Shown here piece by piece: positions 671-45,534 of a stretch of DNA of 64,000 nucleotides. The notes under the pieces were generated by a model, which was not told where the DNA came from, did not search any database, and worked only from the letters and a program-made list of their open reading frames with translations. The stretch is from Schmidtea polychroa (Eukaryota). The stretch is from positions 10,852,001 through 10,916,000 of the forward strand of contig CM097885.1 in assembly GCA_044892525.1 (NCBI GenBank), written 5' to 3'. The position numbers were made by a program, and so were the translations under genes. Each line of letters starts with the position of its first letter. The stretch's first letter is position 1.

Positions 671-7281
<6,611 letters not shown>

Positions 7282-10841: not shown

Positions 10842-11172
10842 AGTAGTGAGGAATCTATGCACCCCAGCACCCCCACCCTCAAAAAACAGCGCTATTAACC
10901 CATATTTTCCACATTTATATGCTTTTTTACCCCATATTCTTCACTTTTTTTAACTTTTAAACTTTGTCCCCTGTTGCCATTAACCCTTAATTTCTTCCCT
11001 TAAAAGTAAAAAAGTTCGGAATAGATGTATTTATAGATTAGTAATTCCGAGAAAAGGTAACGGGGTGCATAGATTCCTCACTACTTGGTCTTAAGGATTT
11101 AATGTTATAAGGATTTAATGTTATAAGAATATCAGATTACCTAATTCATAATGATCTAGGTCGCCTGATCAC
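10842..11172 (+). repeat. Polinton left TIR (~330 bp)
   Basis: Starts AGTAGTGAGGAATCTATGC; 10907-11172 is the reverse complement of 25515-25782 with few differences. Confidence 0.92.
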
Positions 11173-11245
11173 TTTTAGATTTAAAAAAAATAAAAATTAA
11201 TATCAAAACCAAAACATCGTATCCAACCAAAAGATTCTTTTAAAA

Positions 11246-14200
11246 ATGGAAGCTATTTTCAATTGTGAAATTTGTGAAAAAAATTTTAAAAATAAAACTG
11301 CTTTAACATCTCATAAAAAATCAAAAGACCATTTAATAAAAGCTAACACACTAGATGACACTAATTCCAAAATCTGTACTAAATGTAAGGATAGATATTT
11401 ATTTTCAGGTTATAAGAAGCATTTTAAAAATTGTATTGGAGTTCCTAAAAACAGAGAAATATTCGAATGTTCAGCATGTGGAAAAACGATGAGGATAAAA
11501 TCTTTTTACTTAAGACACATAGAAGATTGTGGTCTTGAAGCAAAAGATTCTGATTCAAACTCAATGACTGAAAAAGCTGAAAAACTAGAGTTTAATTGGG
11601 ATGACTTCAATCACACCGATGTAATTGCAGAAGTAAAACGAGGACCCAGATCAATCATGCAATATATAAGAGAAAATAAAAAAAAAATAATATCATCAAT
11701 GGATGATGCTATAAAAAAATTTGGTAGATCAAGATTTAATGTTATAAAAGTTAAATTTACAGGAAATGCAAAATACTGGAGAGGAGATGATTCGATCGCA
11801 ATGCCTCTAGATGTAAAAATTGAAACCTCATATAAATATTTATTTTCTACAAAAGCAGGAAATAAACTTGTTAATGATATAGCTAAAGAATTGGAAGAAA
11901 AACAAGAACAGGTGGAACAAGAACTAGGAGAATCTAATTTAAGATTCCACTCTTTTCAAAATATAGAGATTGAATACTGGAGAGGCGCACCACCAAATCC
12001 TAAATCTTTTATTCACACACCATTCACCTCCAACCATGTTATAAATGTACAGAATAAAGATAATAAATGTTTTCAATGGTCAATACTTGCACACTTACAT
12101 CCTCAAGCAACTAACCCACAGAGAGTTCAAAAATATGAAGAATATGAATCTGAATTAATTTATCCAAAAGATTTTTCCCACCCAATGAAAATTGAAGATG
12201 TTCCAGCATTTGAAAAATTAAATAATCTTAAAATTAATATTTATCAATTCATTCCAACCAAAATTACAAAAACTAGAAAAAATAAAAATTATAAACACAT
12301 TATTCCTATTTACATTTCTAACATGGAAATCTCAGATGAAAAGAGAGAAGTAGATCTTTTAATATTAGAAGAAGGTAAACCAGATGAAGACTTTGATGGA
12401 GAAGAATATGGTGAAGAGGTTCAAAGCGTTCACCCGAGGAGAGAAGCAGAAGAAGGCATTTCATTAGAACCAGAAGCAGAAAGCACTGCGTCCGGAGGCA
12501 CTATGTTAGATAAAAAACTTCATTATATCTTAATAAAGAATTTTCAAAGTTTTATGAAAGGAAACACACTCATTCGTGGAGGCATATGTTGTAAAAGATG
12601 TTTATATCATTCAAGTTCAAAACTTGCTGCCATTAAACATGAGAGACTCTGTTGTAAGAATCAACCTGCTTTAATAAAAATGCCACACAAGAAAAATGCT
12701 AATATGAGGTTTAAAAACTATTCCAATCTATTAGAAGCATTGGGAGTGGTTTATTGTGATTTTGAAGCTATAAATGTAAAACTAAGACGAACAAAAACTA
12801 ATACTGTAAAACTAACAAAACAATTACCCTCTGCTTATAAAATGTTTTTTAAAAGTAATTATCCAGAACTTGTAGAATCTAGAGAATATTCATTTAGAGG
12901 AACTTCTGACAAAGAGACTCTAGATCATTTTGTTAAAACTTTAAATAATCTAGAACATGAATTATATATAATATTAAAATCCAACTTTCCTATGAATTTT
13001 TCAGAAGAACAAGAGGAAGAATATAAAAATGCAACACACTGCTGGATGTGTAAACAAGAGTTTGATATTCAGGAGGAGGAGGATGAGGAGCCAAAGGTTG
13101 CAGACCATGATCATTTTAAAAGAGAAAATAATTACAGAGGAGCAGCCCATTAAAAATGTAATCTCAATTGTAAAAAACCAACACACATACCATTTATATT
13201 TCACAATCTTTTTGGCTATGATATTCACCTATTCATTAAGCATCTGGCCGCAAATGCTAAAAACTCTTTCAAGGTTATTGGACTTAAAAAAGAAAAATAT
13301 AAAAGCATTCAATATGGATGCTTTAAGTTTTTGGACTCGTTAAATTTCTTAGGGATGTCTTTGGATGGGATTGCTAAAACTATGAACCCTGAGGATTTTA
13401 AATATACAAAAGAACATGTGTTATTAAAAAACAATATTCCATTAGAGGAATATAATACCTGTCTAGCAAAAGGAATCTATCCATATGATTATATAGACTC
13501 CTTTGAAAAATATAATGAATTACTCCCACCCCAAGAAGATTTCTTTTCTGTTTTAACACAATCAGGGATTTCTGATCAGGAATATTCCCGTGCAGTTAAA
13601 ATGTGGAATCTATTCAACTGTAGAAACCTTGGAGAATATACTGACATGTATCTTTCCTTGGATGTTTATATCTTAGCTGATTGCTTCGAGACATTTTCAA
13701 AAGCTTTTGAATTAAAACCTTATAATTATATAACCGCTCCCTCTCTAGCTTGGGATATATTATTATATACCATATGGACTGATGAAGATGTAGCAGTAAG
13801 AAATAAAACTATTGAATTATTAGTTGAGCTTGATATGTTTAATGTATATAAACATAATATAAGAGGAGGTATTTCTTCAGTACAAGGGAATAGAGAAATA
13901 AATGCTAATAATTTTACAACTCTTTATCCTAAATTTTTCAAAGATCCTAATGCTCTATATGTAGAAATAACAAACCCAGAAGATCGTAAGGAAATAATGG
14001 AAGGTCTTTCTAATCCTTCTGAAATAATGTATATAGATGCAACAGCTTTATATGCGGGAGTAATGACTCAATACCTTCCAATTGGCAAGTTCACCTGGAA
14101 AGAACCCACTGAGGAATTAATACAAGAAATTCTAAAAACACCAAAAGATTCTCAATTTGGATATGTCATAGAATGCGATCTTGAATATCCCAATGAAATA

Positions 14201-15631
14201 AAATCCAGAACTAGATATTTTCCATTTGCTCCTGTAAGAAGAAAGATCTCTCCTGAAGAACTATCAGATTGGCAGATGGCTCAGGATAGATCGCCCTGTA
14301 TAAAACTTTTATGCGATCAGACCGATAAAACTGATTACCTTTGTCATTATAGACTCCTTCAGTTTTATCTCTCCCATGGAATGGTTTTAAAAAAAGTACA
14401 TTCCATTATTAAATTTCGACAAGCCCCTTTTATGAAAAAATTCATAGAGGGAAATATTTTGAAAAGAAATGCAGCAAAGAGAGCTGGAAATGCATTTCTT
14501 GATATGATTTACAAACTCCTGAACAATGCGGTCTTTGGAAAGACCATGGAGAATATAGACAAGTACACACGTGTAGAGCTTTTGACCAATACATCAAAAG
14601 ATCTTAATAGGTACAACCGGATAATTGGAAAGCCCACATTTAAAAATGCCGAGATATTCTCTAGTAACCTTATAGCCATAGAGATTAAAAACTCTGTAAA
14701 AACTTATAATAAACCAATCTTTATAGGGTTTTCAATTTTAGAACTTTCAAAGCTTCAAATGTATGAAGCCTACTATGATGTTCTAGTACCACATTTTGGA
14801 GATCGAATATCCATGCATGCTATGGACACTGATAGTATGTTTTTAAAAGGTCATAGTAAAGATTTAAAAAAGGAAATAAGTGAAAACGAAACCTTAAATA
14901 AATTAATAAACAACTCTGGAGAATTATTTACTTTTAAAGATGAAAAACCAAATACTCCAATAAGTGGAGGAGTGTTTATTAGACCTAAACAATATTCTCT
15001 TGAAATGAAAGACAAACCAATTATGAAAGAGCATACAATAAAATTTATAATAGAAGGATCTGTTGAAATAGATCACACATTTGAATATCCTTCATTCCCT
15101 GAAAACCCGAAAAGCTATAAAGAAAATAAAAGTAAAGGAATTCAAAAATCAGTGTCAAAAACCTTCACACATCAAGAGTATAAAGATTCATTAAATATAA
15201 ATTATAAAAATAAAATTGCTAAAACCCATCATCTTAAATCAGAGAAACATAATATATATCTTGAAGAGTGTAACAAGATTGCTATAACAAATTATGATGA
15301 TAAAAGATTTATACTTTCTGACTTGAAGACAACATTACCTATTGGAAATGATTTAATCCCTATAATAAAAAATCTTGATAAAATAAATGAAATTTATAAC
15401 CTAGAGATTACAGACCTTCAACATGCTAAAGTAGAAATCCAATATCCTGAAATATTAATTCCTAAACCTTTATATAATCAAGTTCAAAATATAAAACCTA
15501 TAGAACTTAAATATTTTAATACTGATCCTGAATATATCCAAGGACTAACACCAGAAGACTTTAAATCACATAAATTAATGTTAAAAAGCATTACTGCAGA
15601 AATAATTATAAATCAATTACGACTGGTCTAA
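11246..15631 (+). CDS. pPolB: Protein-primed family B DNA polymerase with N-terminal zinc fingers and an EndoVII/HNH-like insert; single in-frame TAA at 13151-13153
   Basis: Exonuclease motifs YCDFE, FHNLFGYD, YLSLDV; polymerase motifs YIDATALY, KLLNNAVFGK, MDTDS; CWMC..DHDH..YRGAAH*KCN. Both listed ORFs are in one frame and 13154-13330 translates without stops. Confidence 0.95.
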
Positions 15632-15655
15632 GAATTAGAATTTTAACACTATAAA

Positions 15656-16210
15656 ATGATGGAAACTAAAAATCAAGAAAATAACATTTTTGAAATTATA
15701 AAAAATATTACTAATTTAAAGGATAACAGATGTAAAGGAATACAGAGAGTGGTTGTAAAGAATCTTTCTCATCAAGATTATATAGATACATTGAATCCAA
15801 ATCATAAAGATAAAATTGATGAAATACATCAACTTAAAAGTGAAAACCATGATATTCACTTGATAGAATCTCAAAAAGTATCATTATCAAATTATGATGA
15901 TAAGAGATTCATACTAAGTGATTTAAAGACAACTCTACCTATTGGAAATAATTTAATCCCTATAATAAAAAATCTAGAAAAGTTGAATAAGTTATATGAT
16001 ACAAAGATTACTGATCTTGATATTTATAATGTTGAAATTATTTATCCCGAGAGAGAAATCGAGAAACCTTTATATTCTCAAGTTTATAATCCTATATGTT
16101 TAGAACTTAAATATTTTAATACTGATCCTGAATATATAAAAGGTCTAAGTGATAAAGAATTTAAAGATCATAAATTAATGATTCATAGGTTGGCTTTCAA
16201 CGATATTTAA
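15656..16210 (+). CDS. Stand-alone paralogue of the pPolB C-terminal ~160 aa
   Basis: Gapless alignment to the pPolB end: KGIQ, NYDDKRFILSDLKTTLPIGN, KPLY, ELKYFNTDPEYI, HKLM. Confidence 0.9.
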   Translation: MMETKNQENNIFEIIKNITNLKDNRCKGIQRVVVKNLSHQDYIDTLNPNHKDKIDEIHQLKSENHDIHLIESQKVSLSNYDDKRFILSDLKTTLPIGNNLIPIIKNLEKLNKLYDTKITDLDIYNVEIIYPEREIEKPLYSQVYNPICLELKYFNTDPEYIKGLSDKEFKDHKLMIHRLAFNDI

Positions 16211-16288
16211 TTTTTTAATAATAAAATGTCGACAATTAATTTAAGCAACTATAGCAACTTGATCTACTTTTTTAAAAATTCATCCATT

Positions 16289-16876
16289 TTATAAGTAAGA
16301 ATTCTTTAACCACTTGTCTCGTTTAATTTTTTTAGAATATTCATTAGTTATAATATTTGCACTTTTTAATTTTATAATTTCATTTTTAATATCTTGTATT
16401 ATTTGATTTGATTTCATTATTTCTTCGTCTGTCAGGATTCCATCTTCCAAAGCTTTTAATTGAAATAAAAATAATTTAGAGATTCCTAATTCTATTGATA
16501 AACAAACTTCTCTATATAAACTTTTCTTTTTAGAAGTATAAGATAATGAAACTATTTCAGTTAAGAAACCATCAGCCACAGAAATACTTCCAAGTATTAC
16601 AGGTGCAAGAGTAACAACTGGTAAAGTTATGGGTAAAATAACTGTTAATATTGCAGATGCAAATCCTAAAGAATAACCTATAACTTTTAAAACTGTATTC
16701 CCTTTATTCCATCTGCTTTTAATTTTTTTATAATGTTGAAGTAAATCTTGTAAATGTAATCTTTCTGATTTAAATTCTTTTACTCTCATAATTTCAAGTT
16801 CTGTGGGAGCTGAAGGAAGGGGTCTGACCTCCGGATAAATTTTTTTTACTTCTTCCATCTTTTGAAACTCATCCAT
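16289..16876 (-). CDS. Polinton hypothetical membrane protein with PSAP motif
   Basis: 195 aa intact ORF; N-terminal IYPEVRPLPSAP, coiled-coil-like stretch, long hydrophobic segment VIGYSLGFASAILTVILPITLPVVTLAPVILGSISV. Confidence 0.75.
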   Translation of the reverse strand: MDEFQKMEEVKKIYPEVRPLPSAPTELEIMRVKEFKSERLHLQDLLQHYKKIKSRWNKGNTVLKVIGYSLGFASAILTVILPITLPVVTLAPVILGSISVADGFLTEIVSLSYTSKKKSLYREVCLSIELGISKLFLFQLKALEDGILTDEEIMKSNQIIQDIKNEIIKLKSANIITNEYSKKIKRDKWLKNSYL

Positions 16877-16923
16877 TTTAATAAAACTAAAATAAGAATT
16901 TAACTACTAAGAATAATTAAAAC

Positions 16924-17931
16924 TTAAACTCTCAACAAGACTTTATCAGCCACCAACACCCGTATATCATAGAAAAATCTTGTTGTGAGCTCATCTTTAT
17001 ACAACTCGAATAATGCTTTACGAACTTCATCAACATCAACCTTTTTTTCATAAAATATTAAATCTATATAATGCACAAGTGTGCTTTTAAAATCAATAGT
17101 TTTACTTCTAACTTTGTGTGCTTTACCTGTTTGAGTATTATCATGCCAAAACCCTCGTGTTAAATCATAACTAGTCATTATAACATCACCTTTTTCAAAC
17201 TTACTATTATAATCACATTTCACAAACCATTTCATTGTTTCACCATCATCATTAAACAAAAAGAAATATGGATCAATAATCTTTACAATCATGTAACAAG
17301 ACCATTCTTTACTGTTTGTTGTTATTAAAATTGGTTCTATAAAATGTTTATATGTATTTGCTAATAATGTTTTATTCTGTTCTAATTCAGCAGCTCTTTT
17401 TCTAATGGTGTGTATGCTGTTAATGTGTGTTGTATGAGATTCTAATTTTACAAGTCTTGCATTAAATGATGTAATCATCTCATTTATTATATTATATATT
17501 GCATTAAATTTATTATCCATAAGTTGTTTATCCATAATTTGTTTATCCATAAGTTGTTTATCCATAAGTTGTTTATCCATAATTTGTTTATCCATAAGTT
17601 GTTTATCTTTAGAGATTAACAGACTTTGTAACTTGTCAAATTTATCATTAAATCGTTGTTCGATATTATTAAGCTTTGATTCCATTTTTGTTGTTAATGA
17701 ACTTTCAATTCTTGTTGTTGTTAAATCAACATATTTCTTATTAACTGCATCAGCTTCATCAGTTGGAAAAGATAATTCTTTTATCTTGTGTCCATTTAAA
17801 ATTAAATCACCCTTCATTGAATCACCTCTTTCATTAATATATTTATTTTCTGTTAAAGTTAATATTTCTTCTGTATTAAACCCTGTTTTTATTGTTCCAC
17901 CACCTCTATTACATGGAATATAAGAACTCAT
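16924..17931 (-). CDS. Fibre/spike-like protein with DKQ(L/I)M repeats
   Basis: GDSMKGDLILNGHKIKELSFPTDEADAVNKKYVD resembles trimeric fibre neck repeats; followed by coiled coil and a globular C-terminus; adjacent to penton. Confidence 0.6.
   Translation of the reverse strand: MSSYIPCNRGGGTIKTGFNTEEILTLTENKYINERGDSMKGDLILNGHKIKELSFPTDEADAVNKKYVDLTTTRIESSLTTKMESKLNNIEQRFNDKFDKLQSLLISKDKQLMDKQIMDKQLMDKQLMDKQIMDKQLMDNKFNAIYNIINEMITSFNARLVKLESHTTHINSIHTIRKRAAELEQNKTLLANTYKHFIEPILITTNSKEWSCYMIVKIIDPYFFLFNDDGETMKWFVKCDYNSKFEKGDVIMTSYDLTRGFWHDNTQTGKAHKVRSKTIDFKSTLVHYIDLIFYEKKVDVDEVRKALFELYKDELTTRFFYDIRVLVADKVLLRV
17516..17605. repeat. Coding 15-bp minisatellite x6
   Basis: TCCATAA(G/T)TTGTTTA units in the order G-T-G-G-T-G, i.e. 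a duplicated 45-mer. Confidence 0.95.
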
Positions 17932-17957
17932 TTATTAATAATTTAAAATGGACTTCG

Positions 17958-18722
17958 TTAAACCTGTTTCAAATGTAAATACATTGAAATCTCTTCTCCA
18001 TTAAAATCAATCAATTCTCCTTCTTGATTAAGAATTTTAAAATTAATATCCATTATATATTTTCTACATAAAGGTAAATAATTTGGAGGATTCATTCTTT
18101 CAACTATTTTATATCCCATAGGAACTGTGTTTGAGGGAAAGGAATATAAAACATTTGTTTGTTTACCATTATTATAAGAACCTGTTATACAATCGCAATG
18201 AATATTTATTGTGTTTGTATTTATTATTTTTATATTATGTTCTGATGTTATTATTTTATCTTCTTTTATTGTTATATCCATAGGTTTAAATCCTAAAACT
18301 GTGTGAAATAAACAATTATCTAAAAAACTAATTTTTATATTCTTCAAAGTCATTACACATTTTGAAGTTGGTATATCCATTTTAATTTTAATACCTTCAT
18401 TTGTTTTTTTAGAAAGTATATCATTTAAATCTTTTATCTCATATGCCCCAGGTTCTATTGTTATAATTTCTGGTTTATGCCCATCACGAGTTTGAATAGT
18501 AAATTTATTATTATCTTTAGTTATATTAAAAATAGTATTATAAGCACAAAACCATAATAGCCCCAATTCATAATTTAAATTTTGATCTAATTTAATTGAA
18601 TCTTGAAAGTTTATAGTAAAGTCTGATTCTTTTGAATTTATAGATAAAGTTCTTGAATATTTATCTGACATTATGTTTACCATTTTTTTTAAATTATCTT
18701 CCGGAGGGTTGTGAAGCTCCAT
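17958..18722 (-). CDS. Penton / minor capsid protein (single jelly-roll)
   Basis: YNTIFNI, IEPGAYEI, INIHCDCITGSY, VPMGYKIVE..PNYLPL, LNQEGELIDFNGE motifs typical of Polinton pentons. Confidence 0.85.
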   Translation of the reverse strand: MELHNPPEDNLKKMVNIMSDKYSRTLSINSKESDFTINFQDSIKLDQNLNYELGLLWFCAYNTIFNITKDNNKFTIQTRDGHKPEIITIEPGAYEIKDLNDILSKKTNEGIKIKMDIPTSKCVMTLKNIKISFLDNCLFHTVLGFKPMDITIKEDKIITSEHNIKIINTNTINIHCDCITGSYNNGKQTNVLYSFPSNTVPMGYKIVERMNPPNYLPLCRKYIMDINFKILNQEGELIDFNGEEISMYLHLKQV

Positions 18723-18770
18723 TTCTTTAGTAGTAAATTCATATAGTAAAAATTCTTATAGTAAAAATCC

Positions 18771-19223
18771 TTATAGTAGAGATTCTAGATCATTATAAAT
18801 TTCTTGAATTATAGATTCAAAATCCTGCGTATGCCCCATATTCAATCTATACAAAACATATAAACTTAAAATACCACATATTTTAGTATTCAAAGGTTGA
18901 ACTTGTAAAGAGTTAAAAGTATAACCATTTGGGGAATCAATCGGAGAACCCCTCAAGAGATAATCTTCAACTTCTTTAGTAGGTTTAATCCCAAAAGAAT
19001 CAAAGTAGATAGATTTCTTATATATACAAACCCAATGAGATCCTTTTTCATTTGAATTTTGATAATTGATTATTATATTCAGGGGACTCTCCAGACTTGA
19101 TAATTCATCATTCATTAATATTTTAATTTTTAAATTTAAATAATTTGCATAATCTTTTAAATCAAAATTTGTTTTTGCATTTATTCCAAATGTTTTTAAA
19201 AAATCTAATATTGAAGGAGTCAT
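18771..19223 (-). CDS. Adenain-like cysteine maturation protease
   Basis: GSHWVCI (His), YFDSFG (Asp), QVQ..ICG (Gln/Cys). Confidence 0.92.
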   Translation of the reverse strand: MTPSILDFLKTFGINAKTNFDLKDYANYLNLKIKILMNDELSSLESPLNIIINYQNSNEKGSHWVCIYKKSIYFDSFGIKPTKEVEDYLLRGSPIDSPNGYTFNSLQVQPLNTKICGILSLYVLYRLNMGHTQDFESIIQEIYNDLESLL

Positions 19224-19245
19224 TTTGTATTTTAAAACTTCATAT

Positions 19246-20115
19246 TTATAACTTCGTATACTTATTAAATTTATCTTTTGAAATTATTCCTTGTTTTAAC
19301 AAATCTTTAGAAATCTTTAAAATATCAGAATCTAAATTATTATGTCCTGCTTTCCTTGCAGCTAATAGTTTTCTTAATTCAATAAAAAGATTGATGGGAT
19401 TTCCTTCACTAATTAATCCCTCTCCCTCTGTAACAACATAACCCTTTTCATTTTTATCTAAATAATTCTTTAAATCTTGAATATATTTTGCTTTAGAACT
19501 AGCTCTTATTAATCTTATTAAATTTAAATATTTTTTAATTTCTTCAACATCATCTGAAGAATATCCACAAAGTAATTTATAAAAATCATCTGTAAATTCA
19601 AAGTCTAAATATTCATTATTATAAACATTTTGTGAATGAATACGTGATTTATTTTCTGAATTTGAATATAAAGTAAAGTTTTGTTTATTAATTGTTATTA
19701 TTTGATATCCTTCAGTATTAGTATTAAATGTGGGTCTAATTGAAGGAGGTAAATCATCTCTAATTTTAGGATCAACTTTAAGAGGTTTTGTTTTTAAAAA
19801 CATTTCTTCTTCTTCTTCCGCATTAGAAATTCTTCTGCGTTTTCTTTGATTTCTTTCAGGATGACTTTCACTGGATTCTTCCTTCCACTCTAGTTTTTTT
19901 ATTTTTTGTTCATGGGGACTTCCTCCATCTTCTAACTCTTTAAATTTTGCTTGCTCATTTAATCCTTTTATAGCTTTAATTGTTGGCCCCTGTTGTTGTG
20001 TTATTACCTCATTTAATATTATAGATTCAGCATGTTGACTTGTATCTTTTTTATTATATTTATCTTGTTCTGATTGTAATTTTTTTAAAAGTGCTAATCT
20101 TTCTTCATATACCAT
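19246..20115 (-). CDS. Conserved Polinton hypothetical (putative core) protein
   Basis: C-terminal NPINLFIELRKLLAARKAGHNN..ILKISKDLLKQGII resembles a motif I recall from invertebrate Polinton ORFs; intact 289 aa. Confidence 0.7.
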   Translation of the reverse strand: MVYEERLALLKKLQSEQDKYNKKDTSQHAESIILNEVITQQQGPTIKAIKGLNEQAKFKELEDGGSPHEQKIKKLEWKEESSESHPERNQRKRRRISNAEEEEEMFLKTKPLKVDPKIRDDLPPSIRPTFNTNTEGYQIITINKQNFTLYSNSENKSRIHSQNVYNNEYLDFEFTDDFYKLLCGYSSDDVEEIKKYLNLIRLIRASSKAKYIQDLKNYLDKNEKGYVVTEGEGLISEGNPINLFIELRKLLAARKAGHNNLDSDILKISKDLLKQGIISKDKFNKYTKL

Positions 20116-20137
20116 TTTTATGGTATTAAAAATGGTA

Positions 20138-20746
20138 TCATTTTGGTAAAGGATCCGTTGGAAAGGGCTTCAAGTATAATCCTTTACCATTTTTAGTTTT
20201 ACAAAGGCATCCATTCTTTAAAGATTTACATATTTTTTTTAAATCTTCTTTATCTTTTGAAGATAAAGATTCAGATGTAGAAATTTGATTTTTTAAAAAA
20301 TCATTTAAACCTCTACCTTTATAAGGATCAAGATAGAGACCTTTGCCCTGAGACTTTTGCCGACTCCCCTCATATGGATTAAGATAGAGACCCTTTCCAA
20401 CGGACACTCCCCCTTTAGCTTGCCCTACCTTCTTCATTGAATCGATTTCAGTTTGTAGTTTTTCTTTTTCTAGGTCTGTCTTTTGAGATTCTTTAGCTTT
20501 TTGAACTGTAGTTGCAATTCCTCCAGCTATTCCAGCAGCACCTGATAAACCAGCAATGATTGCAGGTATTAAAGCAGCTAATGGAAGAATGCCACCTTCT
20601 TTAGCTTCGTGGATCTTCGCTCTAACTTGTTCTTTTACATGTTTTCCAATAAAATATTTTTTACCATCAATTACTACTGATTTACTTTTATTTGAATTTA
20701 TTAATTCTTGCAAAGATTCTTCAGTAGAGGAACTCTTCGAGGTCAT
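20138..20746 (-). CDS. Adenovirus pX(mu)-like virion core precursor
   Basis: GGILPLAALIPAIIAGLSGAAGIAGGI resembles the adenovirus pX C-terminus; three GKGLYLxP repeats. Confidence 0.7.
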   Translation of the reverse strand: MTSKSSSTEESLQELINSNKSKSVVIDGKKYFIGKHVKEQVRAKIHEAKEGGILPLAALIPAIIAGLSGAAGIAGGIATTVQKAKESQKTDLEKEKLQTEIDSMKKVGQAKGGVSVGKGLYLNPYEGSRQKSQGKGLYLDPYKGRGLNDFLKNQISTSESLSSKDKEDLKKICKSLKNGCLCKTKNGKGLYLKPFPTDPLPK

Positions 20747-20761
20747 TTTATAATAAACAAA

Positions 20762-21568
20762 ATGGATGTACGAAGTCCAATAATTTGGAAACCAATTTTA
20801 AATAGACATAAGAGTAAATTTAATAATAAAGTATTTCCTGATAATTTTAGATTATTAATTGTTGGTTCTTCTGGATGTGGAAAGAATGTACTTGTTTTGA
20901 GAATGTTACTTGAAGATGATTTTTTAGATTATAATAATTTAATCTTTTATTCTACAACCATAAATCAACCAGAATTACAACTTTTGAAATGTGGATTTGA
21001 AAATAAATTAACTAAAAAAGCAATAATTGATATTTTTAAAAATCAACATAGGTGTCCTGAAGAAGTTTTTCAACCTTGTGATATGGTTGATTGGTATAAG
21101 GAAAAGATTTTAGAATCAGATATTAGTAATAAAAATGATTATATTTGTGAAGAAGGGCAGGAGGCAATTCAAGTTTTATTCTCTAATAAACCTGAAGATG
21201 TTTTACATTGTGATTTACTTCCTAAAGATAAAAAGAATCTAGTTATATTTGATGATGTTGTTAATATGAAAAATCAAGAGATTCAAAAGAGTTACTTTAC
21301 ACGAGGTCGACATAATAATTGTAATGTTATTTATATATCTCAAACATATTATGCTTTAGATAAAAATTCAATAAGAAATAATTCCAATTGTTTTATATTT
21401 TTTAAATTAGATCGCCGTGATAAGAATATGATTTATAATGATTTATTTTCAAATGTTGAACCTGATAAGAATATGTTTGATATGTTTGTTGATAATCATT
21501 GGAAAGAAAAATATAATTATATTTATTTGGATAGAGAAGAAGCTGAAATATGGAAAAGTTTGTTTTAG
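20762..21568 (+). CDS. A32/FtsK-like DNA packaging ATPase
   Basis: Walker A GSSGCGKN, Walker B LVIFDD, RGRHNN, IYISQ, SIRNN. Likely ATG at 20762 (AAAATG context). Confidence 0.93.
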   Translation: MDVRSPIIWKPILNRHKSKFNNKVFPDNFRLLIVGSSGCGKNVLVLRMLLEDDFLDYNNLIFYSTTINQPELQLLKCGFENKLTKKAIIDIFKNQHRCPEEVFQPCDMVDWYKEKILESDISNKNDYICEEGQEAIQVLFSNKPEDVLHCDLLPKDKKNLVIFDDVVNMKNQEIQKSYFTRGRHNNCNVIYISQTYYALDKNSIRNNSNCFIFFKLDRRDKNMIYNDLFSNVEPDKNMFDMFVDNHWKEKYNYIYLDREEAEIWKSLF

Positions 21569-21579
21569 GGCTTGTCGAC

Positions 21580-22989
21580 TTAAAAATCTGTTTTCTGTAG
21601 TTCATTATTATAAAATCTACCTAATATTTTTTCATTATTTAAATCAAAGATGCTATATGTTATTGGAGTTGTATAATGTATTTTATTTATAATAAAAATT
21701 TCATTTGTCCATTTTGCTGTGAATCCTTTTTCAAATTTATTTTTATATTTAAATATTCTTACTCGGTCACCAATTTTAAACTTTGGTTTTATAGGGGTTG
21801 TATCAACAATATTTACCACTTTAATGGTTTCAGGCTTCATGGAAGCATTTAAAGGTGTTAATTTTATAGAACTATGTACATCATTATTATATTCATTTAC
21901 AATCTTTTGTAACAATTCATTGTTCCATTTTTGTTTTCCAATAGCAGTAAAATATTTCCACATTTTATTTTTTAATGTTCTATTTAATCTTTCAACTACG
22001 ACTGCTTTTCCTTCGTTTTCTGTTGAATATAATTTAATATCATTTTCATTTAAAAACTTTGTAAAAACTTTGTTATAAAATTCTGTTCCTTTATCACACC
22101 ATAAATATTTTGGAATTCTTTGATATTCTTCAAATATATTTTCAAATGCTTCTGTAATTGAATATCCTGTTTTATTTTCTAAACACCTTGCAAAAGCAAA
22201 TCTTGTATATAAATCTATTACTGTTAAAATTATTTTATATTTTTCAGGGTCTGATGATTTGGGCATAAAGACTAAATCAGCAGACCATGTTTGATCTTTT
22301 TCATGTACTTGAACTTTTAAATATTTTTTATTTTTTCTAAATTCATGGTGTAATTCGTTGGCATATTTTATTTCTGATTCTGTTGGGGTTTGTAAACTAG
22401 TCTTGGCTGTACTCTCGAGGGATCTTTCAATCTCTGCTTGTTCGATAATCTTTTTATAAGCAACATCTTTTGCTTTCCTAGGAAGTCTTGCACCCATGGT
22501 GATCGGACTGTGTCCTAAGCCTATGAAAATCTTAACTTTCATTGCTAATTTAACTAGAGCTCTTTGAATCTTTTCTTGGGTTGATGGATTTTGGATACTA
22601 TTTAAATCATGTATTAAATTCACATCTGCAACATGTCTATCTCTAAGATCTTTTGAATTGTATGCAATGTCATGTTTTAAAGCTGCTTGATCAATTCTAT
22701 TTATTGGTTCTTCTCCTTGTTTAGGATTATTATTTTCATCTAATCTAATATCTAGACGTGTTCCTGGTCCAGTATAGTTGTGTTTAAATAAATGTCTTTC
22801 ACCTGGATATTTTTCTGTAGTAAAAGGTTTTAATATTGAAGATGCCACTTTTGAAGATTGCAAATCGCCTCCAGCTCGTGGAATTAGATCAACTCTCGTA
22901 TGTTTTTTAGTTTTAAGATGACTTGCTTTATGATGTCTTGTAACTTGACAATTACAACTTTCACATCTCCAATATTTATTTAGAGACAT
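21580..22989 (-). CDS. C2H2 zinc finger - parvovirus-type phospholipase A2 - retroviral-like (rve) integrase fusion
   Basis: CESC..H..H; NYTGPGT and DQAALKHDIAY (PLA2); WSADL, WCDKGTEF, VVERLNRTLK (DDE); FKIGDRVRI..WTNEIF C-terminus. Confidence 0.92.
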   Translation of the reverse strand: MSLNKYWRCESCNCQVTRHHKASHLKTKKHTRVDLIPRAGGDLQSSKVASSILKPFTTEKYPGERHLFKHNYTGPGTRLDIRLDENNNPKQGEEPINRIDQAALKHDIAYNSKDLRDRHVADVNLIHDLNSIQNPSTQEKIQRALVKLAMKVKIFIGLGHSPITMGARLPRKAKDVAYKKIIEQAEIERSLESTAKTSLQTPTESEIKYANELHHEFRKNKKYLKVQVHEKDQTWSADLVFMPKSSDPEKYKIILTVIDLYTRFAFARCLENKTGYSITEAFENIFEEYQRIPKYLWCDKGTEFYNKVFTKFLNENDIKLYSTENEGKAVVVERLNRTLKNKMWKYFTAIGKQKWNNELLQKIVNEYNNDVHSSIKLTPLNASMKPETIKVVNIVDTTPIKPKFKIGDRVRIFKYKNKFEKGFTAKWTNEIFIINKIHYTTPITYSIFDLNNEKILGRFYNNELQKTDF

Positions 22990-23018
22990 TTTAAAATGTT
23001 AAAATATCAGGGATTATA

Positions 23019-24311
23019 TCAAGAATCTCCCCTAACATTTTCGATTATTGAAATCTTTCCACCATATAATTTCATTTCTATTTTCTTTTCTTCTAATATT
23101 AATGTATAGACTTTAGCTTTAAAATTAGAATCCTTTGTTACATGAAGTGTAACATCAACATTATTTATGGCTAATCTATCATCTTGATCTGATACATTTA
23201 TACAAAATATAGAATATAAATTTTTGAAATCTTCTAAACTTAATTGTGGTTCAACTTTGAAATCATAACATGTTTCAATATAATTTAGATATGGGAATAT
23301 GTTTTCATTATTTTCAATATTAAATTCCATTCTATTTATTGGATAATAAGAACTATTTAATTGAATTTGGATTGTTTTTAAATTATCATCTCCAATCTTT
23401 TGAATAAACAAGTTGTTATTTTTTTGGAAAGATGAATCTACTTCTTTGAATCCAATCAAGATATATCTTGGTCGGTATGCTAAATTTGCTACCTTTATAG
23501 AATATGTTGAACCCTCTGTCATACTAAATTCACTACAGATTCTATTTAAATAATTTACATTTATAGACTTGTTGGAATTTAATCTTTCAAGGAGTTTAAT
23601 CTCAGAATGTGGGTTTAATGTCCATTCAGGTATATGTAATTCAAGTGTTGATAATTTTAATTTAGCTTTTGTATCTACAGCTCCATAGAACAATCTTTTA
23701 TCACCTTCTACTCTATTACAGATGAATTCTATAAAAACATTATGAAGTATACGATTATAGTTTTGAAGGAATCCAAACAAGTGTTTTAATTCAAAATAAC
23801 CTTCAAATTTTTTAGATTTATAAAGTTCAGCTCTTTTATAGTAACCATGGTTTACATCTAAACCATCTTTATCTAAATCCCCTTTATTAACATCAGGAAT
23901 CCAACCTGTTAATTCACCATATTCGTTTTTATAATCACAACCAGTCAAAATAAAATTTAACATTGTAGAATATACTCCCGGATGCAAAACAGTTTCAATT
24001 TCTGATGATCCTAGTTTTAATCTCATGTTGGAGAATAAATTTGGAAAGAAATTATTTTCTAGGATTATATCTTTGTTTGCTTCAATTTCTAATTCGATTT
24101 TATAATATAATTTGGCATTACAAATATCTATTGGGTTTGATGTTTGAAGAGATTGAAAAACTATATCACCCCTACGATTTAAGTTTGCAATAGATCCTGA
24201 AGTTGGGGAGATTTTAGGTACATCATTTTTCTTGATTTCATGAGTAAATTCTTTATTATAATCAAGATTTAATTTATTTTTTTCTTGAATTTTAAGATTT
24301 CTATTATTCAT
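23019..24311 (-). CDS. Major capsid protein (double jelly-roll)
   Basis: 430 aa, beta-rich; LKHLFGF, RPRYILIGF, YYPINRMEFN, FKNLYSIFCINVS motifs like Polinton MCPs. Confidence 0.85.
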   Translation of the reverse strand: MNNRNLKIQEKNKLNLDYNKEFTHEIKKNDVPKISPTSGSIANLNRRGDIVFQSLQTSNPIDICNAKLYYKIELEIEANKDIILENNFFPNLFSNMRLKLGSSEIETVLHPGVYSTMLNFILTGCDYKNEYGELTGWIPDVNKGDLDKDGLDVNHGYYKRAELYKSKKFEGYFELKHLFGFLQNYNRILHNVFIEFICNRVEGDKRLFYGAVDTKAKLKLSTLELHIPEWTLNPHSEIKLLERLNSNKSINVNYLNRICSEFSMTEGSTYSIKVANLAYRPRYILIGFKEVDSSFQKNNNLFIQKIGDDNLKTIQIQLNSSYYPINRMEFNIENNENIFPYLNYIETCYDFKVEPQLSLEDFKNLYSIFCINVSDQDDRLAINNVDVTLHVTKDSNFKAKVYTLILEEKKIEMKLYGGKISIIENVRGDS

Positions 24312-24365
24312 TTTTATATATTAAAATTTACACACACAATAGGATTAATTAAATATATTATGTAA

Positions 24366-24446
24366 GCCATTATAGCGGAGTGGGAATAGGCTTCAATTTT
24401 ATCACCGGGAGTCCGGGTTCAATTTTCGATTTTGGTCAATTTTTTT
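24366..24446 (+). ncRNA. Pol III tRNA-like unit 1
   Basis: A box TAGCGGAGTGG (24373), degenerate B box GGTTCAATTTT (24416), partial acceptor pairing GCCA/TGGT, then a T7 run. Confidence 0.55.
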
Positions 24447-24608
24447 CGATATTTTTTTTTCAACGGAATCTGATTCAGCGTACTGATTTTAGTATATATT
24501 TAAATTTTCAGATGGATCTGAGTGGTAGTTGTCGAGAAAATGAATAATTAATTATTAATTTCATCAATAAATAGTCACACATTAACAACTTATTTTATAT
24601 TGAGTATA

Positions 24609-24689
24609 GCTCTAATAGCTTAGTGGTAATAGCACTCGACTGCATTGCCAATACCAATGGGTTCAAATCCCATTTCGGTCATTTTTTTT
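24609..24689 (+). ncRNA. Pol III tRNA-like unit 2 (tRNA-Cys-like)
   Basis: A box TAGCTTAGTGG (24616), D stem GCT/AGC, GACTGCA at the anticodon position, perfect T arm ATGGG-TTCAAAT-CCCAT, T8 terminator. The anticodon stem does not pair. Confidence 0.7.
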
Positions 24690-24848
24690 CAAATTTTTTT
24701 TTTAAACAAAATATTGATCAGCATACTCGATTTTGTACTTGTACAAATTTTAAAGGTGATTGGTCAACGGCAACTCTTGGAAATTTAAGATCAAAAACGT
24801 TTTAACTTGAATCGATTATTTATAGTCTAAAAAATGACAAAAATTCAA

Positions 24849-24930
24849 ACCTTGATGGCGCAGTGGGCTAGACCGGCACAGTGGTTCAAATAGATAGCGG
24901 TTCAAATCCTAACTGTGGTTAGTTTTTTTT
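24849..24930 (+). ncRNA. Pol III tRNA-like unit 3
   Basis: A box TGGCGCAGTGG (24856), B box GGTTCAAATCC (24899), ACC/GGT end pairing, T8 terminator. Confidence 0.65.
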
Positions 24931-25088
24931 CAACATAAAATAATATTAAAAATTTGAAAATAATAGTGTGGGTATCTTATATTTATAAAGTACTTGTATA
25001 TTTTATTTTATTTATTTTATTTTATTTTATTTTTTTATTAATTAATTATTTTTTAAACATAAATATGAAAAAAAAAATATTGAAACGG

Positions 25089-25169
25089 GTGATGGTGGCG
25101 AACCGGTAATTATCGCCACCTGTCTTTCGAACACCCCCGGATCGATCCCGGTAATGTGCACATTTATTT
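25089..25169 (+). ncRNA. Pol III tRNA-like unit 4
   Basis: A-box-like TGGCGAACCGG (25096) inside an 8-bp hairpin GGTGGCGA/TCGCCACC; T-arm-like CCGG-ATCGATC-CCGG. Weak terminator (TTTATTT, or T4 near 25178). Confidence 0.5.
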
Positions 25170-25396
25170 CTTGGTTGTTTTCGGACCTCTTTCGGATTCG
25201 CTTTCGAATTCATTTGAACTTTCGAGCAGCACGCTTAAAACGCCGTTGAAATCGTATTCGAGCGAGAAGCGAATAATAAGGTGTGCTGCTATTATCGAAT
25301 TGATTCTGATGTATGAGTCTGGCCAGCTTGTATATTGGAAGAGATTTGATAAACGAAAGAGGTTGATAAATAAAAAAAAAATGATCCGGATCAAAA

Positions 25397-25467
25397 AAAA
25401 CTGTTGAGGGGACAGTGAAAAAAAAAAAAAAAAAAAAAAAAAAACACTGTCCTCTCAGAGCAGTTTT
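25397..25467. other. Hairpin with a ~27-nt poly(A) loop
   Basis: TGAGGGGACAGTG-(A)27-CACTGTCCTCTCA, extended by AAAACTG/CAGTTTT. Confidence 0.75.
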
Positions 25468-25514
25468 ACTATTTTCATAAAATTTTTTATTTTTAAAACT
25501 TTCAAAACCTTAAG

Positions 25515-25782
25515 GTGATCAGGCGACCTAGATCATTATGAATTAGGTAATCTGATATTCTTATAACATTAAATCCTTATAACATTAAATCCTTAAGACC
25601 AAGTAGTGAGGAATCTATGCACCCTTTGCAACCTTTTCTCGGAATTACTAATCTATAAATACATCTATTCCGAACTTTTTTACTTTTAAGGGAAGAAATT
25701 AAGGGTTAATGGCAATAGGGGACAAAGTTTAAAAGTTAAAAAAAGTGAAGAATATGGGGTAAAAAAGCATATAAATGTGGAA
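25515..25782 (-). repeat. Polinton right TIR, outer ~65 bp missing
   Basis: Reverse complement of 10907-11172; ends abruptly against Penelope-like sequence. Confidence 0.92.
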
Positions 25783-28320
25783 TCCAAAAATTAATGTGCA
25801 GAATACAGTGAATATTCCATGACTTTATCAATAATGTCTCACAAATTACACGTACCCAATAATTATCGACATTTTTAATAAAATTTTAAAATCAGACATA
25901 ACATACCTATTTTAATCTTATTGTGCTCACCAATATGGGTCAAAGCCTTCGGTCTATAATGTTCTTGAGCTCAAATAAAGAGATGACGGGAAGTCTCTCC
26001 AATGTGTGTGACATTACACCCATTACATGTAAACTGATAAACGAGATCGGAACACAATTCGATCGGAGTTTTAGACTTATTAATGAACATATTGCATACT
26101 TTCCATAAAGTTGACACTATCCTATAGTTTAAATTCCCTAACTGCTTTCTTATCTTCACTTTATAATCCTTAAAACCTTCTGAGTACGGCAATACTAACA
26201 CAAATTTAGGCTCATCATCCTTGCTCACACTATTTAATTTATTTAACTCATCAAACTCACACACCTCAACAAAATCACACCAGATTTTCTCAAACATGGA
26301 TCCTTAGGATTTTTAAGAAATTTACAACAGTCTCTCTTACTATAATTAATGAAGAGGATTTTGAATAACCGTTCTTCATTAGCAATTCAACCAATTTGTT
26401 AACACTTTTTACTGAATTTTCAAAAGTAGAAGACAAAGACCATGAACGATAAATCAACCCCTTCACTATATTTCTTTTATACTTGAACTCACAAAAACTT
26501 TCGGATGAAGTATAGAGTACAGTTGGTTTTCTTTAAATCTCTGTCTCGTAGTGTTTCTCTTTGCGTCGTATTAGCAGATCCAAGAAAGCAAGTGATGATT
26601 TTTTCTCCGTTTCACATGTGAATACAATGTTGTTATGTAGACTATTCATATAATGCAAAAACGGATCAACATGGTTCTGATTTTCAAATATAAGAAAAAT
26701 ATCAACCACATACCGTTTATAAACAGTGGGTTTCATACATTGAAAAGATGCAATTTTCTTTTCTAAGCTTGTTAAAAAAATTGAATCCATTGTTGGTGCT
26801 AAAGGAGAACCCATATCAACTCCATATATTTGTTAATGCCATTCATTATTGAAAAGAAAATTGATTTTTGAAGTAGCAAATTCAAGAAGTTCACAAAATC
26901 CTCTTCTATCCTCAATATGATGTTCAGAAATGTTTTCATTCCATAAAAAGCAACATAATTCAATTGTTTCAACCAATGGTAAACAGACTACAAAAACAGA
27001 CTACATACGTCAAACGCAACCATAATTTCATCCAAACTTTGTCTATCGTATTGTGCAATGCAGGAAACCAATTAAAAACTATCTCAACATTCAAATTTTG
27101 ATCTTATTTATGGTTTTAATAATCCATCCAAAAATTTGGCTATTTTATACTGGGCAATACCAATCATGGATAAAACAGGTCTCATAGGCCTGCCATCTTC
27201 ATGGATTTTTGGAAGCCCAAATATATTTGCTTGTTGAGACCCCATTGGGTGAATAGATTTAAACAACTCTTCATCAATTTACTTATTTTTAATGAATTTA
27301 TTCAGTATTTCTTTCCACAAATTCTCATCCTTAAGAGGAGGCTGTATACCATTTTTTCGAGAAATCTCTATTTTCACAAACTGGGGAGCATGCAAAACAT
27401 CATTAAGCTTATTCACATATACATCGTGGTCGAGAATTACCAATCCACTCGCTTTGTCAAACTTGCATATATTGATGTCTTTTTTAGCTAAATATTTTAA
27501 TACAGTAAAATTTTTAATGTTCTGCTTTTTATTTTTATCAATATACTCCATCGTACTCGAACTCAACACACTCATCACATAATTAGTATTAATAACCTTC
27601 ATTGATCGGAGTATATGAAAGTATAAACTTTCAATCTTAGCACATAATTTTGTTTCATCAATTCTTTTCTTAATGGAAAGATTGGGACCAAATTTCAAAA
27701 TACGATCCTCCTCTTCAGACAAAACAACTTTACTCATGTTTATTAATGTATTCTCTACACTAAATTTAGAGATCCCAAATAATTTTCTCAATTTTTAAAA
27801 TTTTTTAATATGAGCATTCTTGTTTGATTTTAACTGAGAAATTGAATTTTTAATACACCATTCAACCCATACCTGCAAACAAAACTCATTTGTTATTTGA
27901 TTCAAAGTAAATCCAATATTTAATAGTTTTTTATCCAAGGATGTTCTCCTAAGCTTCTCTGATTACAACATTCTTCTTAACGTTCTTTTATGTTTTATTA
28001 TTGGCACATTGAAAGACAATCACTATGTTTCATTTTAAAAAAAGAACGAAGGAATCATATTTTCTTCTAGACAAGTTTCAAGAAAACAAATGTCTAATTC
28101 TTTTCTTCTAAGTGCATTATAAATCTTCAATAATCTTTTGAATAGTGAAACTGCAGAAACATGATTTTTGAATAAATAGTTAAACATGCATGGCAATGAT
28201 TTAATTATAAGATAACGCCATCAAGAATTCTTTTCACTATATATTTCGACAGTTTTCCTGTCATCATCAGGTGGGATATAATAACTATATAAATTAAGGA
28301 TTTTAAACAAATTTATTTAT
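25783..28320 (-). mobile_element. Degenerate Penelope-like retroelement (RT + GIY-YIG)
   Basis: MGSPLAP, YKRYVVDIF, FLDL (RT); LVYQFTCNGCNVTHIGETSRHL (GIY-YIG); multiple frameshifts. Confidence 0.9.
28235..28275 (-). ncRNA. Minimal hammerhead ribozyme at the Penelope 5' end
   Basis: Minus strand CAC-C-TGATGA-T-GACAG-GAAAA-CTGTC-GAAA-TATATA-GTG: CUGAUGA/GAAA core, 5-bp stem II, palindromic minimal stem III. Confidence 0.75.

Positions 28321-33519: not shown

Positions 33520-45534
<12,015 letters not shown>

What the first reader, a model, noticed from the sequence alone, without database searches (positions are those of the whole stretch)
24366..25169. Polinton carries a phased array of four Pol III tRNA-like small-RNA genes (candidate VA-RNA/TMER analogue)
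Seen: in the ORF-free arm between the capsid start codon and the right TIR, A-box motifs start at 24373, 24616, 24856 and 25096 (spacings 243, 240, 240). Each is followed 43-44 nt later by a B-box/T-arm motif (GGTTCAATTTT, GGTTCAAATCC, GGTTCAAATCC, GGATCGATCCC), and units 1-3 end in T7-T8 runs. Boxes and period are kept while the middles diverge and cannot form an anticodon stem. The spacers after units 1 and 2 are still homologous (TGATTCAGCGTACTGATTTTAGTA vs TGATCAGCATACTCGATTTTGTA), so the array arose by old tandem duplication. Unit 2 looks tRNA-Cys derived. Established: adenovirus VA RNAs, EBV EBERs and MHV68 TMERs are Pol III viral ncRNAs that affect PKR/Dicer pathways or yield miRNAs, and Polintons are related to adenoviruses. 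Inference: this is a virus-encoded small-RNA cassette (RNAi decoy, miRNA precursor or tRNA mimic), or a nucleosome-scale TFIIIC insulator protecting the provirus. I know of no description of this in Polintons.
Basis: partly seen in the sequence, partly recalled or inferred. Interest (0 to 1): 0.88.

Follow-up and report, generated by a model that had tools for sequence, protein, structure and literature searches.

The report
Polinton's tRNA-derived small-RNA cassette
A virus-like jumping element with about two thousand copies in this animal genome carries, near its ends, worn-down tRNA genes that keep the signals for RNA polymerase III, followed by a strongly folded RNA-like stretch, so it probably makes its own small RNAs much as adenoviruses and some herpesviruses do, although transcription has not been shown.

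Summary
The four A-box/B-box units are real: the only such pairs in 64 kb, inside a Polinton with about 2,100 capsid copies. They are not dispersed SINEs.

The 'phased tandem array' is only partly right. The arm is modular: most U1-U2 copies keep a short ORF between U2 and U3, the window type has deleted it, and U3-U4 spacing runs 212-295 nt. U3-U4 is the core, often copied into both ~950-bp terminal repeats; diverged sister lineages lack all units.

In U3, boxes and terminator are conserved but the cloverleaf is not. Only four T's separate it from U4, against six or more after U1-U3.

Best reading: an accessory Pol III cassette in which U4 drives a TMER/VA-like read-through RNA. Transcription is untested and covariation support is modest. 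The scan noted this cassette on three other copies in this genome and a similar unit in another genome. I found no paper describing it.

The parts
10842..25782 (.). Polinton/Maverick copy that carries the cassette; right end truncated in this copy
   Evidence: Left end starts AGTAGT; TIR 10906-11207 matches 25471-25781 at 94%; gene set by Pfam; other copies run about 63 nt further
11246..15631 (+). Protein-primed family B polymerase, split over ORFs 11246-13153 and 13355-15631 in this copy
   Evidence: ORF list; PF03175 on the second ORF
20762..21568 (+). Packaging ATPase
   Evidence: PF04665, E 1e-8
21580..22989 (-). Integrase with a PLA2-like domain
   Evidence: PF00665 and PF08398
23019..24311 (-). 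Double-jelly-roll major capsid gene, divergent from the cassette
   Evidence: PF21738, E 3e-26; 2,098 exact copies of a capsid motif in G000
24366..24446 (+). U1: A box 24373, degenerate B box 24416, T7; young module paired with U2
   Evidence: 55 copies almost invariant
24609..24689 (+). U2: tRNA-Cys-like unit, A box 24616, B box 24660, T8; anticodon and acceptor stems broken
   Evidence: Rfam RF00005 32.4 bits; alignment to host tRNA-Cys; 1,354 exact motif copies
24804..24830 (+). 3' remnant of a short (about 75-80 codon) ORF that other copies carry between U2 (or the capsid start) and U3
24849..24930 (+). U3: core unit, A box 24856, B box 24899, T8; tandemly doubled in some lineages
   Evidence: 115 copies, 66 haplotypes; boxes vary at 1 of 21 sites against 22 of 52 elsewhere in the unit; six or more T's in 94 of 95
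25089..25181 (+). U4: core unit, A box 25096 inside an 8-bp hairpin, B box 25139, followed only by T4 (25178-25181); candidate promoter of the long RNA
   Evidence: T4 in 52 of 52 arms scored; 2,901 exact motif copies
25184..25364 (+). Structured body: closing stem with hairpin A (25225-25290) and the 61-nt, 25-pair hairpin B (25292-25352)
   Evidence: z -5.31; plus -72.1 against minus -43.1 kcal/mol, 16 of 70 pairs G-U; low substitution density; no Rfam match
25397..25467 (+). Terminal hairpin with a poly(A) loop, followed by T4 (25464), T4 (25472) and T6 (25483); candidate 3' end
   Evidence: fold; found in 99 of 131 arms; one pair reads A-T 55, G-C 37, A-C 4, G-T 3
25471..25782 (.). Right terminal inverted repeat, short type (without units) in this copy

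Best explanation
An accessory RNA polymerase III cassette that one radiation of this Polinton built from captured tRNA genes. Shown: the units are fixed parts of the element's arms, they point outward, and in U3 the A box, B box and terminator are kept while the cloverleaf decays. Shown: a conserved, plus-strand-specific fold follows U4. Inferred: host TFIIIC/TFIIIB bind the boxes. U1-U3 then give short (about 75-nt) transcripts whose sequence matters little; their likely job is to keep the arm open and loaded with Pol III. U4 has only a weak four-T stop, so part of its transcripts should run on into a roughly 380-nt RNA (tRNA-like head, two long hairpins, poly(A)-loop hairpin, T-run cluster). 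Inferred, least certain: that RNA works like a TMER or VA RNA, as a Dicer substrate or decoy that blunts host small-RNA silencing.
For: Only box pairs in the window, 0 of 200 null sequences. U3 shared substitutions: boxes 1 of 21 sites, rest of unit 22 of 52, P 0.002. Six or more T's after U3 in 94 of 95 and after U1/U2 in 57 of 63, but exactly four between U4 and the body in 52 of 52, and no T4 inside the body in 47 of 48; only 1 of 52 blocks of 282 nt on each strand of the element lacks T4. Body z -5.3; the largest plus-minus folding asymmetry among 142 windows of the element. Body substitution density 15 of 192 sites, against 37 of 101 in spacers and 25 of 113 at capsid third codon positions. 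All 6 shared changes at paired sites of hairpin B keep pairing; three copies lose hairpin A cleanly and keep hairpin B. Every U4/body context read lay in a Polinton arm: 30 of 30 and 18 of 18.
Against: No transcript, start or end is shown. Covariation is modest: 6 of 6 in hairpin B has P 0.08 under a transitions-only null (0.007 with transversions); 11 of 14 in the core fold has P 0.15 (0.005); three shared changes break core pairs. In U4 the boxes are no more conserved than its middle (3 of 22 against 7 of 38, P 0.73). U1/U2 are too young to test and U1's B box is off-consensus. The one host tRNA-Cys gene read is followed by four-T runs only, so T4 may stop Pol III in this host. The T4-free stretch is matched by 147 of 1000 shuffles. 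Intact-ended sister lineages carry no unit, so the cassette is dispensable. Lineages are related and recombine, so site counts are not independent.
Confidence: 0.5

Rival explanations
1. DNA-level function only: the units are TFIIIC/Pol III landing sites that act as chromatin barriers at both ends of the provirus, and the RNAs are by-products.
For: U3 keeps boxes but not structure; U3-U4 flank the genes in both TIRs in 20 of 57 unit-bearing elements; unit number varies; planarian Polintons are repressed through piRNA and H3K9me3 (PMC8532177, passages; that the host is a planarian was not tested here). Barrier activity of tRNA genes is recalled, not tested.
Against: It does not explain the plus-strand fold behind U4 or the contrast between long T runs and T4; spacing is not held (212-295 nt).
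Confidence: 0.2
2. The body is the structured 3' end of a Pol II transcript (from the short arm ORF or the divergent promoter), ended at the AATAAA next to 25367; the tRNA-like units are separate.
For: The short ORF lies upstream on the same strand; an AATAAA follows the closing stem; T4 separates U4 from the body.
Against: The body persists in arms without the ORF (U3-U4 and U3-U3-U4 types, 19 of 99) and in left arms facing away from the polymerase gene; it is always directly behind U4 except in 1 deletion copy among the arms classified.
Confidence: 0.12
3. Neutral relics: captured tRNA or SINE heads that hitch-hiked with a successful lineage and were spread by TIR conversion; the hairpins are DNA features of replication.
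For: The cassette is absent from sister lineages; covariation is not significant under the strict null; hairpin arms can be homogenised by DNA-level conversion.
Against: Selective conservation of U3 boxes and terminator; body more conserved than capsid third positions; RNA fold asymmetric by 29 kcal/mol but DNA fold by only 4; no solo copies found.
Confidence: 0.1
4. The short units are tRNA mimics or sources of tRNA-fragment-like RNAs that act through their own sequence.
For: U2 keeps the tRNA-Cys 5' half and a T arm; planarian pseudo-tRNAs yield abundant 5' fragments (PMC7962491, passages).
Against: U3's first seven bases and T-stem 3' strand vary freely, and U4's 3' part is deleted in several lineages; U1, U3 and the window's U4 fold no better than shuffles.
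Confidence: 0.08

Closest known systems
TMERs (tRNA-miRNA-encoded RNAs) of murine gammaherpesvirus 68
   Same: A cluster of tRNA-like type-2 Pol III units near a genome end; U4 plus body has the layout of a tRNA-like head followed by two long hairpins (TMER layout from PMC4838037 and PMC8223928, passages).
   Different: Only one of four units has hairpins; predicted length about 380 nt against 200-250; the cloverleaf is lost, so tRNase Z cutting is doubtful; the carrier is an integrating Polinton in an animal genome; no transcript shown.
Adenovirus VA RNA I/II (Rfam RF00102)
   Same: Internal type-2 promoter (PMC8223928, passage) and a long double-stranded fold, in a related linear dsDNA lineage (PMC8502044, listing and passages).
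   Different: No Rfam match; terminal position, often in both TIRs; larger. VA RNA's length of about 160 nt and its PKR and Dicer targets are recalled, not from a call.
tRNA genes in polinton-like and MELD viruses
   Same: tRNA-derived genes inside this virus group are known: 558 tRNA, 10 miRNA and other Rfam matches in a collection of 8,300 PLV/virophage genomes (PMC12220804, passages); predicted tRNA genes in MELD viruses (PMC8502044, figure legend).
   Different: Those are called as tRNAs and read as codon compensation. These units are not callable tRNAs, keep only promoter and terminator, and lead into an unrelated folded RNA.
tRNA-derived SINEs
   Same: U4 + body + A-run has a head-body-tail outline.
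   Different: No dispersed copies found; U4 count fits at most two per element (2,901 against 2,098); the A-run is a hairpin loop.

Membership tests
Polinton/Maverick (adintovirus) | Protein-primed PolB and retroviral-type integrase | tested here: met
   PF03175 and PF00665; hallmark genes per PMC8502044 abstract start
Polinton/Maverick (adintovirus) | Double-jelly-roll capsid and packaging ATPase | tested here: met
   PF21738 and PF04665
Polinton/Maverick (adintovirus) | TIRs starting AGT and 6-bp target duplication (feature recalled) | tested here: met
   TIR; 6-bp duplication in 5 of 6 end pairs that could be scored, of 7 examined; the window copy's right end is truncated
Polinton/Maverick (adintovirus) | Adenain-type protease (feature recalled) | tested here: inconclusive
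   ORF 18771-19223 has only a weak peptidase hit, E 0.05, and no meaningful PDB match
Functional tRNA gene | Cloverleaf with acceptor and anticodon stems | tested here: not met
   ARAGORN 0; only U2 passes RF00005, with broken stems
Type-2 Pol III gene | A box and B box at tRNA spacing with a downstream T run | tested here: met
   U1's B box is off-consensus and U4 has only T4
Type-2 Pol III gene | Transcription by Pol III | not testable with these tools
   No run on record as RNA was listed
tRNA-derived SINE | Dispersed solo copies with their own target duplications | tested here: not met
   30 of 30 and 18 of 18 contexts are Polinton arms
MHV68 TMER | tRNA-like 5' element followed by two pre-miRNA-like hairpins | tested here: inconclusive
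   Layout met by U4 + body only; the head is not a cloverleaf
MHV68 TMER | 200-250 nt length | tested here: not met
   T runs predict about 90 or about 380 nt
MHV68 TMER | Processing by tRNase Z and Dicer into miRNAs | not testable with these tools
   Needs small-RNA data
Adenovirus VA RNA | Match to the VA covariance model | tested here: not met
   No VA hit at E up to 10
Adenovirus VA RNA | Inhibition of PKR, Dicer or exportin-5 (recalled) | not testable with these tools
   Biochemistry needed

The most novel reading that the evidence does not exclude
This Polinton makes its own Pol III-driven counter-silencing RNA: U4 reads through into the folded body, hairpin B is diced into a small RNA or saturates the host Dicer/Argonaute route, and tandem promoter-only units at both ends hold the provirus open. 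Gaining the cassette fuelled the expansion to about 2,000 copies. Animal Polintons would then have arrived at VA-RNA-like genes from tRNAs repeatedly, showing in a living series how adenovirus VA RNAs could have arisen.
Probability: 0.3. Interest if true: 0.88.

Novelty: new variant of a known kind. Interest (0 to 1): 0.67.

Why it matters
Polintons are known almost only by their proteins. A Pol III non-coding RNA cassette would give them a layer of regulation and counter-defence like that of adenoviruses and gammaherpesviruses. This genome holds lineages with zero, two, three, four and five units side by side, so gain, duplication and copying into both terminal repeats can be followed. With about 2,900 U4 copies the RNA could be abundant and easy to detect, and existing small-RNA and knockdown data sets could test the idea directly.

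Tried and rejected
Expression: no RNA holder listed (five holders were only guessed to be RNA). Four such runs were laid on 22900-25899. They are contigs, so depth cannot rank parts and was not used. Contigs cover parts of capsid, units and body; none listed has 31 letters on both sides of the T4. One contig from a second organism label covers 25212-25366. The joint skipping 24328-24804 is explained by DNA variants in G000.

Relatives outside the genome: none in viral contigs by capsid, alignment or U4 motif. Nineteen metagenome loci had no tRNA and no box pair, but most hold little DNA upstream of the capsid and the longest has ORFs there, so this says little. Searching G000 with distant capsids returned the same broad family.

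Selection test on the 29 closest copies: too few variants. SINE origin, a strict 240-bp phase, and capture of the host tRNA-Cys repeat with its spacer (no spacer similarity) were rejected. One search used 7 changes for hairpin B by a miscount; the right number is 6.

Literature: searches listed no paper on Pol III RNAs of this kind in Polintons, judged from listings and the passages named. A motif search of full texts gave one unrelated hit. Six cassette motifs were absent from the readable supplements of a planarian tRNA catalogue (PMC7962491; positive control found; its figure file and one index file could not be read). Supplements of a planarian miRNA paper (PMC3854530, abstract only seen) were unavailable, and one further paper was not held, so an earlier annotation of hairpin B as a miRNA is not excluded. 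Repbase entries were not searchable.

Full report
Setting. The finding lies in a 14.9-kb Polinton (10842-25782) with polymerase, ATPase, integrase with a PLA2-like domain, and a double-jelly-roll capsid gene. The left end starts AGTAGT; the right repeat stops about 63 nt short in this copy. The family is very large: a capsid motif has 2,098 exact matches in G000, and the 40 scored matches to the arm were 96-100% identical over nearly its full length. Six-base target duplications were present in 5 of 6 scorable end pairs. Earlier notes of this scan take the host for a planarian; I did not test that.

The four A+B pairs sit where stated and are the only ones on either strand of 64 kb; 0 of 200 simulated sequences gave one. 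Units 1-3 end in T7-T8. Spacers 1 and 2 are homologous, spacer 3 is not. Unit 2 is the only Rfam tRNA hit and matches the host tRNA-Cys gene in 26 of 30 columns from A box to anticodon. None is a cloverleaf.

The array is modular, not one phased repeat. Among 99 arms picked by capsid similarity (the 30 closest copies and duplicates left out; the sample leans to diverged capsids), the types were ORF-U3-U4 23, U1-U2-ORF-U3-U4 22, U3-U4 11, ORF-U3-U3-U4 9, U3-U3-U4 8, the window type 3, other unit-bearing 5, and no unit 18. The ORF is a 75-80-codon gene whose tail survives at 24804-24830. In the first 17.7 Mb of contig C1, 7 of 36 U2 copies with a nearby U4 have the window's spacing and 28 the ORF-containing spacing. 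U3-U4 spacing runs 212-295 nt (n 79). Most lineages with 81-89% capsid identity, and a few close ones with other terminal repeats, have no boxes in the arm. In the same 17.7 Mb, 57 of 68 capsid motifs have U4 or the body in their arm, and 20 of those 57 have it in the opposite arm too. There U3-U4-body is part of terminal repeats of about 950 bp, facing outward. All 30 and all 18 contexts read were Polinton arms, which rules out the SINE alternative as far as sampled.

What is conserved. In 71 arms (of 97; 26 near-identical copies dropped), sites with a second allele in at least three copies were 4 of 43 in boxes, 43 of 104 elsewhere in U3/U4 and 63 of 101 in spacers, gaps included. On substitutions alone the contrast holds for U3 (1 of 21 against 22 of 52, P 0.002) but not for U4 (3 of 22 against 7 of 38), whose middle is itself conserved. 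U3's first seven bases and T-stem 3' strand vary freely, and several lineages delete the 3' part of U4. Six or more T's follow U3 in 94 of 95 cases. U1/U2 are too uniform to test. These P values treat sites as independent and are overstated for related, recombining copies.

Behind U4 lies a 180-nt fold (25184-25364) with z -5.3 (-4.5 with U4 included). It folds at -72.1 kcal/mol on the plus strand and -43.1 on the minus, with 16 of 70 pairs G-U, the largest such asymmetry among 142 windows of the element; as DNA the difference is small. Its substitution density (15 of 192) is below spacers (37 of 101) and capsid third positions (25 of 113). Hairpin B (61 nt, 25 pairs) has the shape of a pre-miRNA (inference). 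In 101 copies all 6 shared changes at its paired sites keep pairing, and three copies lose hairpin A while keeping B (29 of the 101 were picked by an exact motif overlapping hairpin A). This is suggestive only: P 0.08 under a transitions-only null, and 11 of 14 for the whole core, P 0.15. A terminal hairpin with a poly(A) loop shows one compensatory pair (A-T 55, G-C 37, other 7; possibly one event) and is followed by T4, T4, T6. Between U4 and the body the longest run is T4 in 52 of 52 arms, and the body lacks T4 in 47 of 48; shuffles reproduce the latter in 15% of cases. Rfam has no match.

Mechanism. Most likely (0.5) the boxes recruit host TFIIIC/TFIIIB. U1-U3 then yield short transcripts whose value lies in the act of Pol III loading, and U4 yields a roughly 90-nt product plus a roughly 380-nt read-through RNA that serves as a small-RNA precursor or double-stranded-RNA decoy. 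The anatomy, copy structure and conservation are shown; binding, transcription, read-through and target are inferred. Rivals are a pure chromatin barrier (0.2), a Pol II 3' end (0.12), neutral relics (0.1) and tRNA mimicry (0.08). The host's tRNA-Cys gene is followed by T4 runs only, which warns that T4 may be a full stop here.

Comparison. It works most like the MHV68 TMERs, described as 200-250-nt Pol III RNAs with a tRNA-like element and two pre-miRNA hairpins (PMC4838037, passages; PMC8223928, passages), and like VA RNAs, but it is a member of neither family. tRNA genes and a few other Rfam matches are already reported in polinton-like viruses (PMC12220804, passages) and predicted in MELD viruses (PMC8502044, passages). 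Planarian Polintons are piRNA-repressed (PMC8532177, passages), which would supply a motive if the host is one. Searches found no description of degenerate Pol III units with a folded RNA in Polinton ends; subscription papers, Repbase and some supplements were out of reach.

Earlier scan notes. Three notes describe this cassette on other copies in the genome and one a similar unit in another genome. They are unchecked AI notes and not independent support. One reads the units as recruitment sites only; my U3 result fits that, but the fold behind U4 argues for an RNA product as well.

Verdict. A real, accessory, tRNA-derived Pol III-type cassette with a candidate structured RNA: a new variant of a known kind, interest 0.67, limited by the absence of expression data.

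Noticed in passing
G000:C1:269250371 onward (L061-L066); C4:76658343 onward (L031-L053); C140 and C333 (L054-L060): Host tRNA genes lie in long tandem arrays: tRNA-Cys with a 281-bp period (1,004 motif matches), tRNA-Lys 424 bp, tRNA-Arg 278 bp.
   Followed up: partly
window 11246-13153 against L173-L198: The window's polymerase N-terminal ORF is only 47-69% identical in protein to that of elements with long unit-bearing TIRs, though capsids are 95-99% identical in DNA: polymerase and arm modules appear to be swapped between lineages.
   Followed up: partly
L179:815-1054; L086, L101, L104, L131: Short charged, probably coiled-coil ORF (75-80 codons) divergent from the capsid gene, present also in unit-less lineages; function unknown, no family scan obtained.
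   Followed up: no
window 10842-10865, 11062-11085, 25601-25624: The first 24 nt of the element recur inverted about 220 nt inside each TIR; unit-less lineages show the same layout with different sequences.
   Followed up: no
window 15656-16210: A 184-aa ORF that duplicates the C-terminal part of the polymerase (72% over 300 nt).
   Followed up: no
window 24883-24892: U3 holds a second, conserved B-box-like word in its middle, in front of the true B box.
   Followed up: no
window 24600-24617: A 9-nt duplication at the head of U2 is present in the window type and absent from most of the 55 copies.
   Followed up: partly
L229; L233; L019/L020; L162: Rearranged derivatives: a 1.9-kb mini-element with both ends and a capsid fragment, and head-to-tail arm duplications.
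   Followed up: no
window 37382-42172 and 1345-3639 with 42880-45132: Large AT-rich inverted repeats outside the Polinton, one 921 nt at 99%.
   Followed up: no
other G000 windows: Earlier notes report Polintons in this genome with a miniature TATA-binding protein; TBP is part of TFIIIB (recalled). No TBP family hit appeared among this element's 12 ORFs.
   Followed up: no
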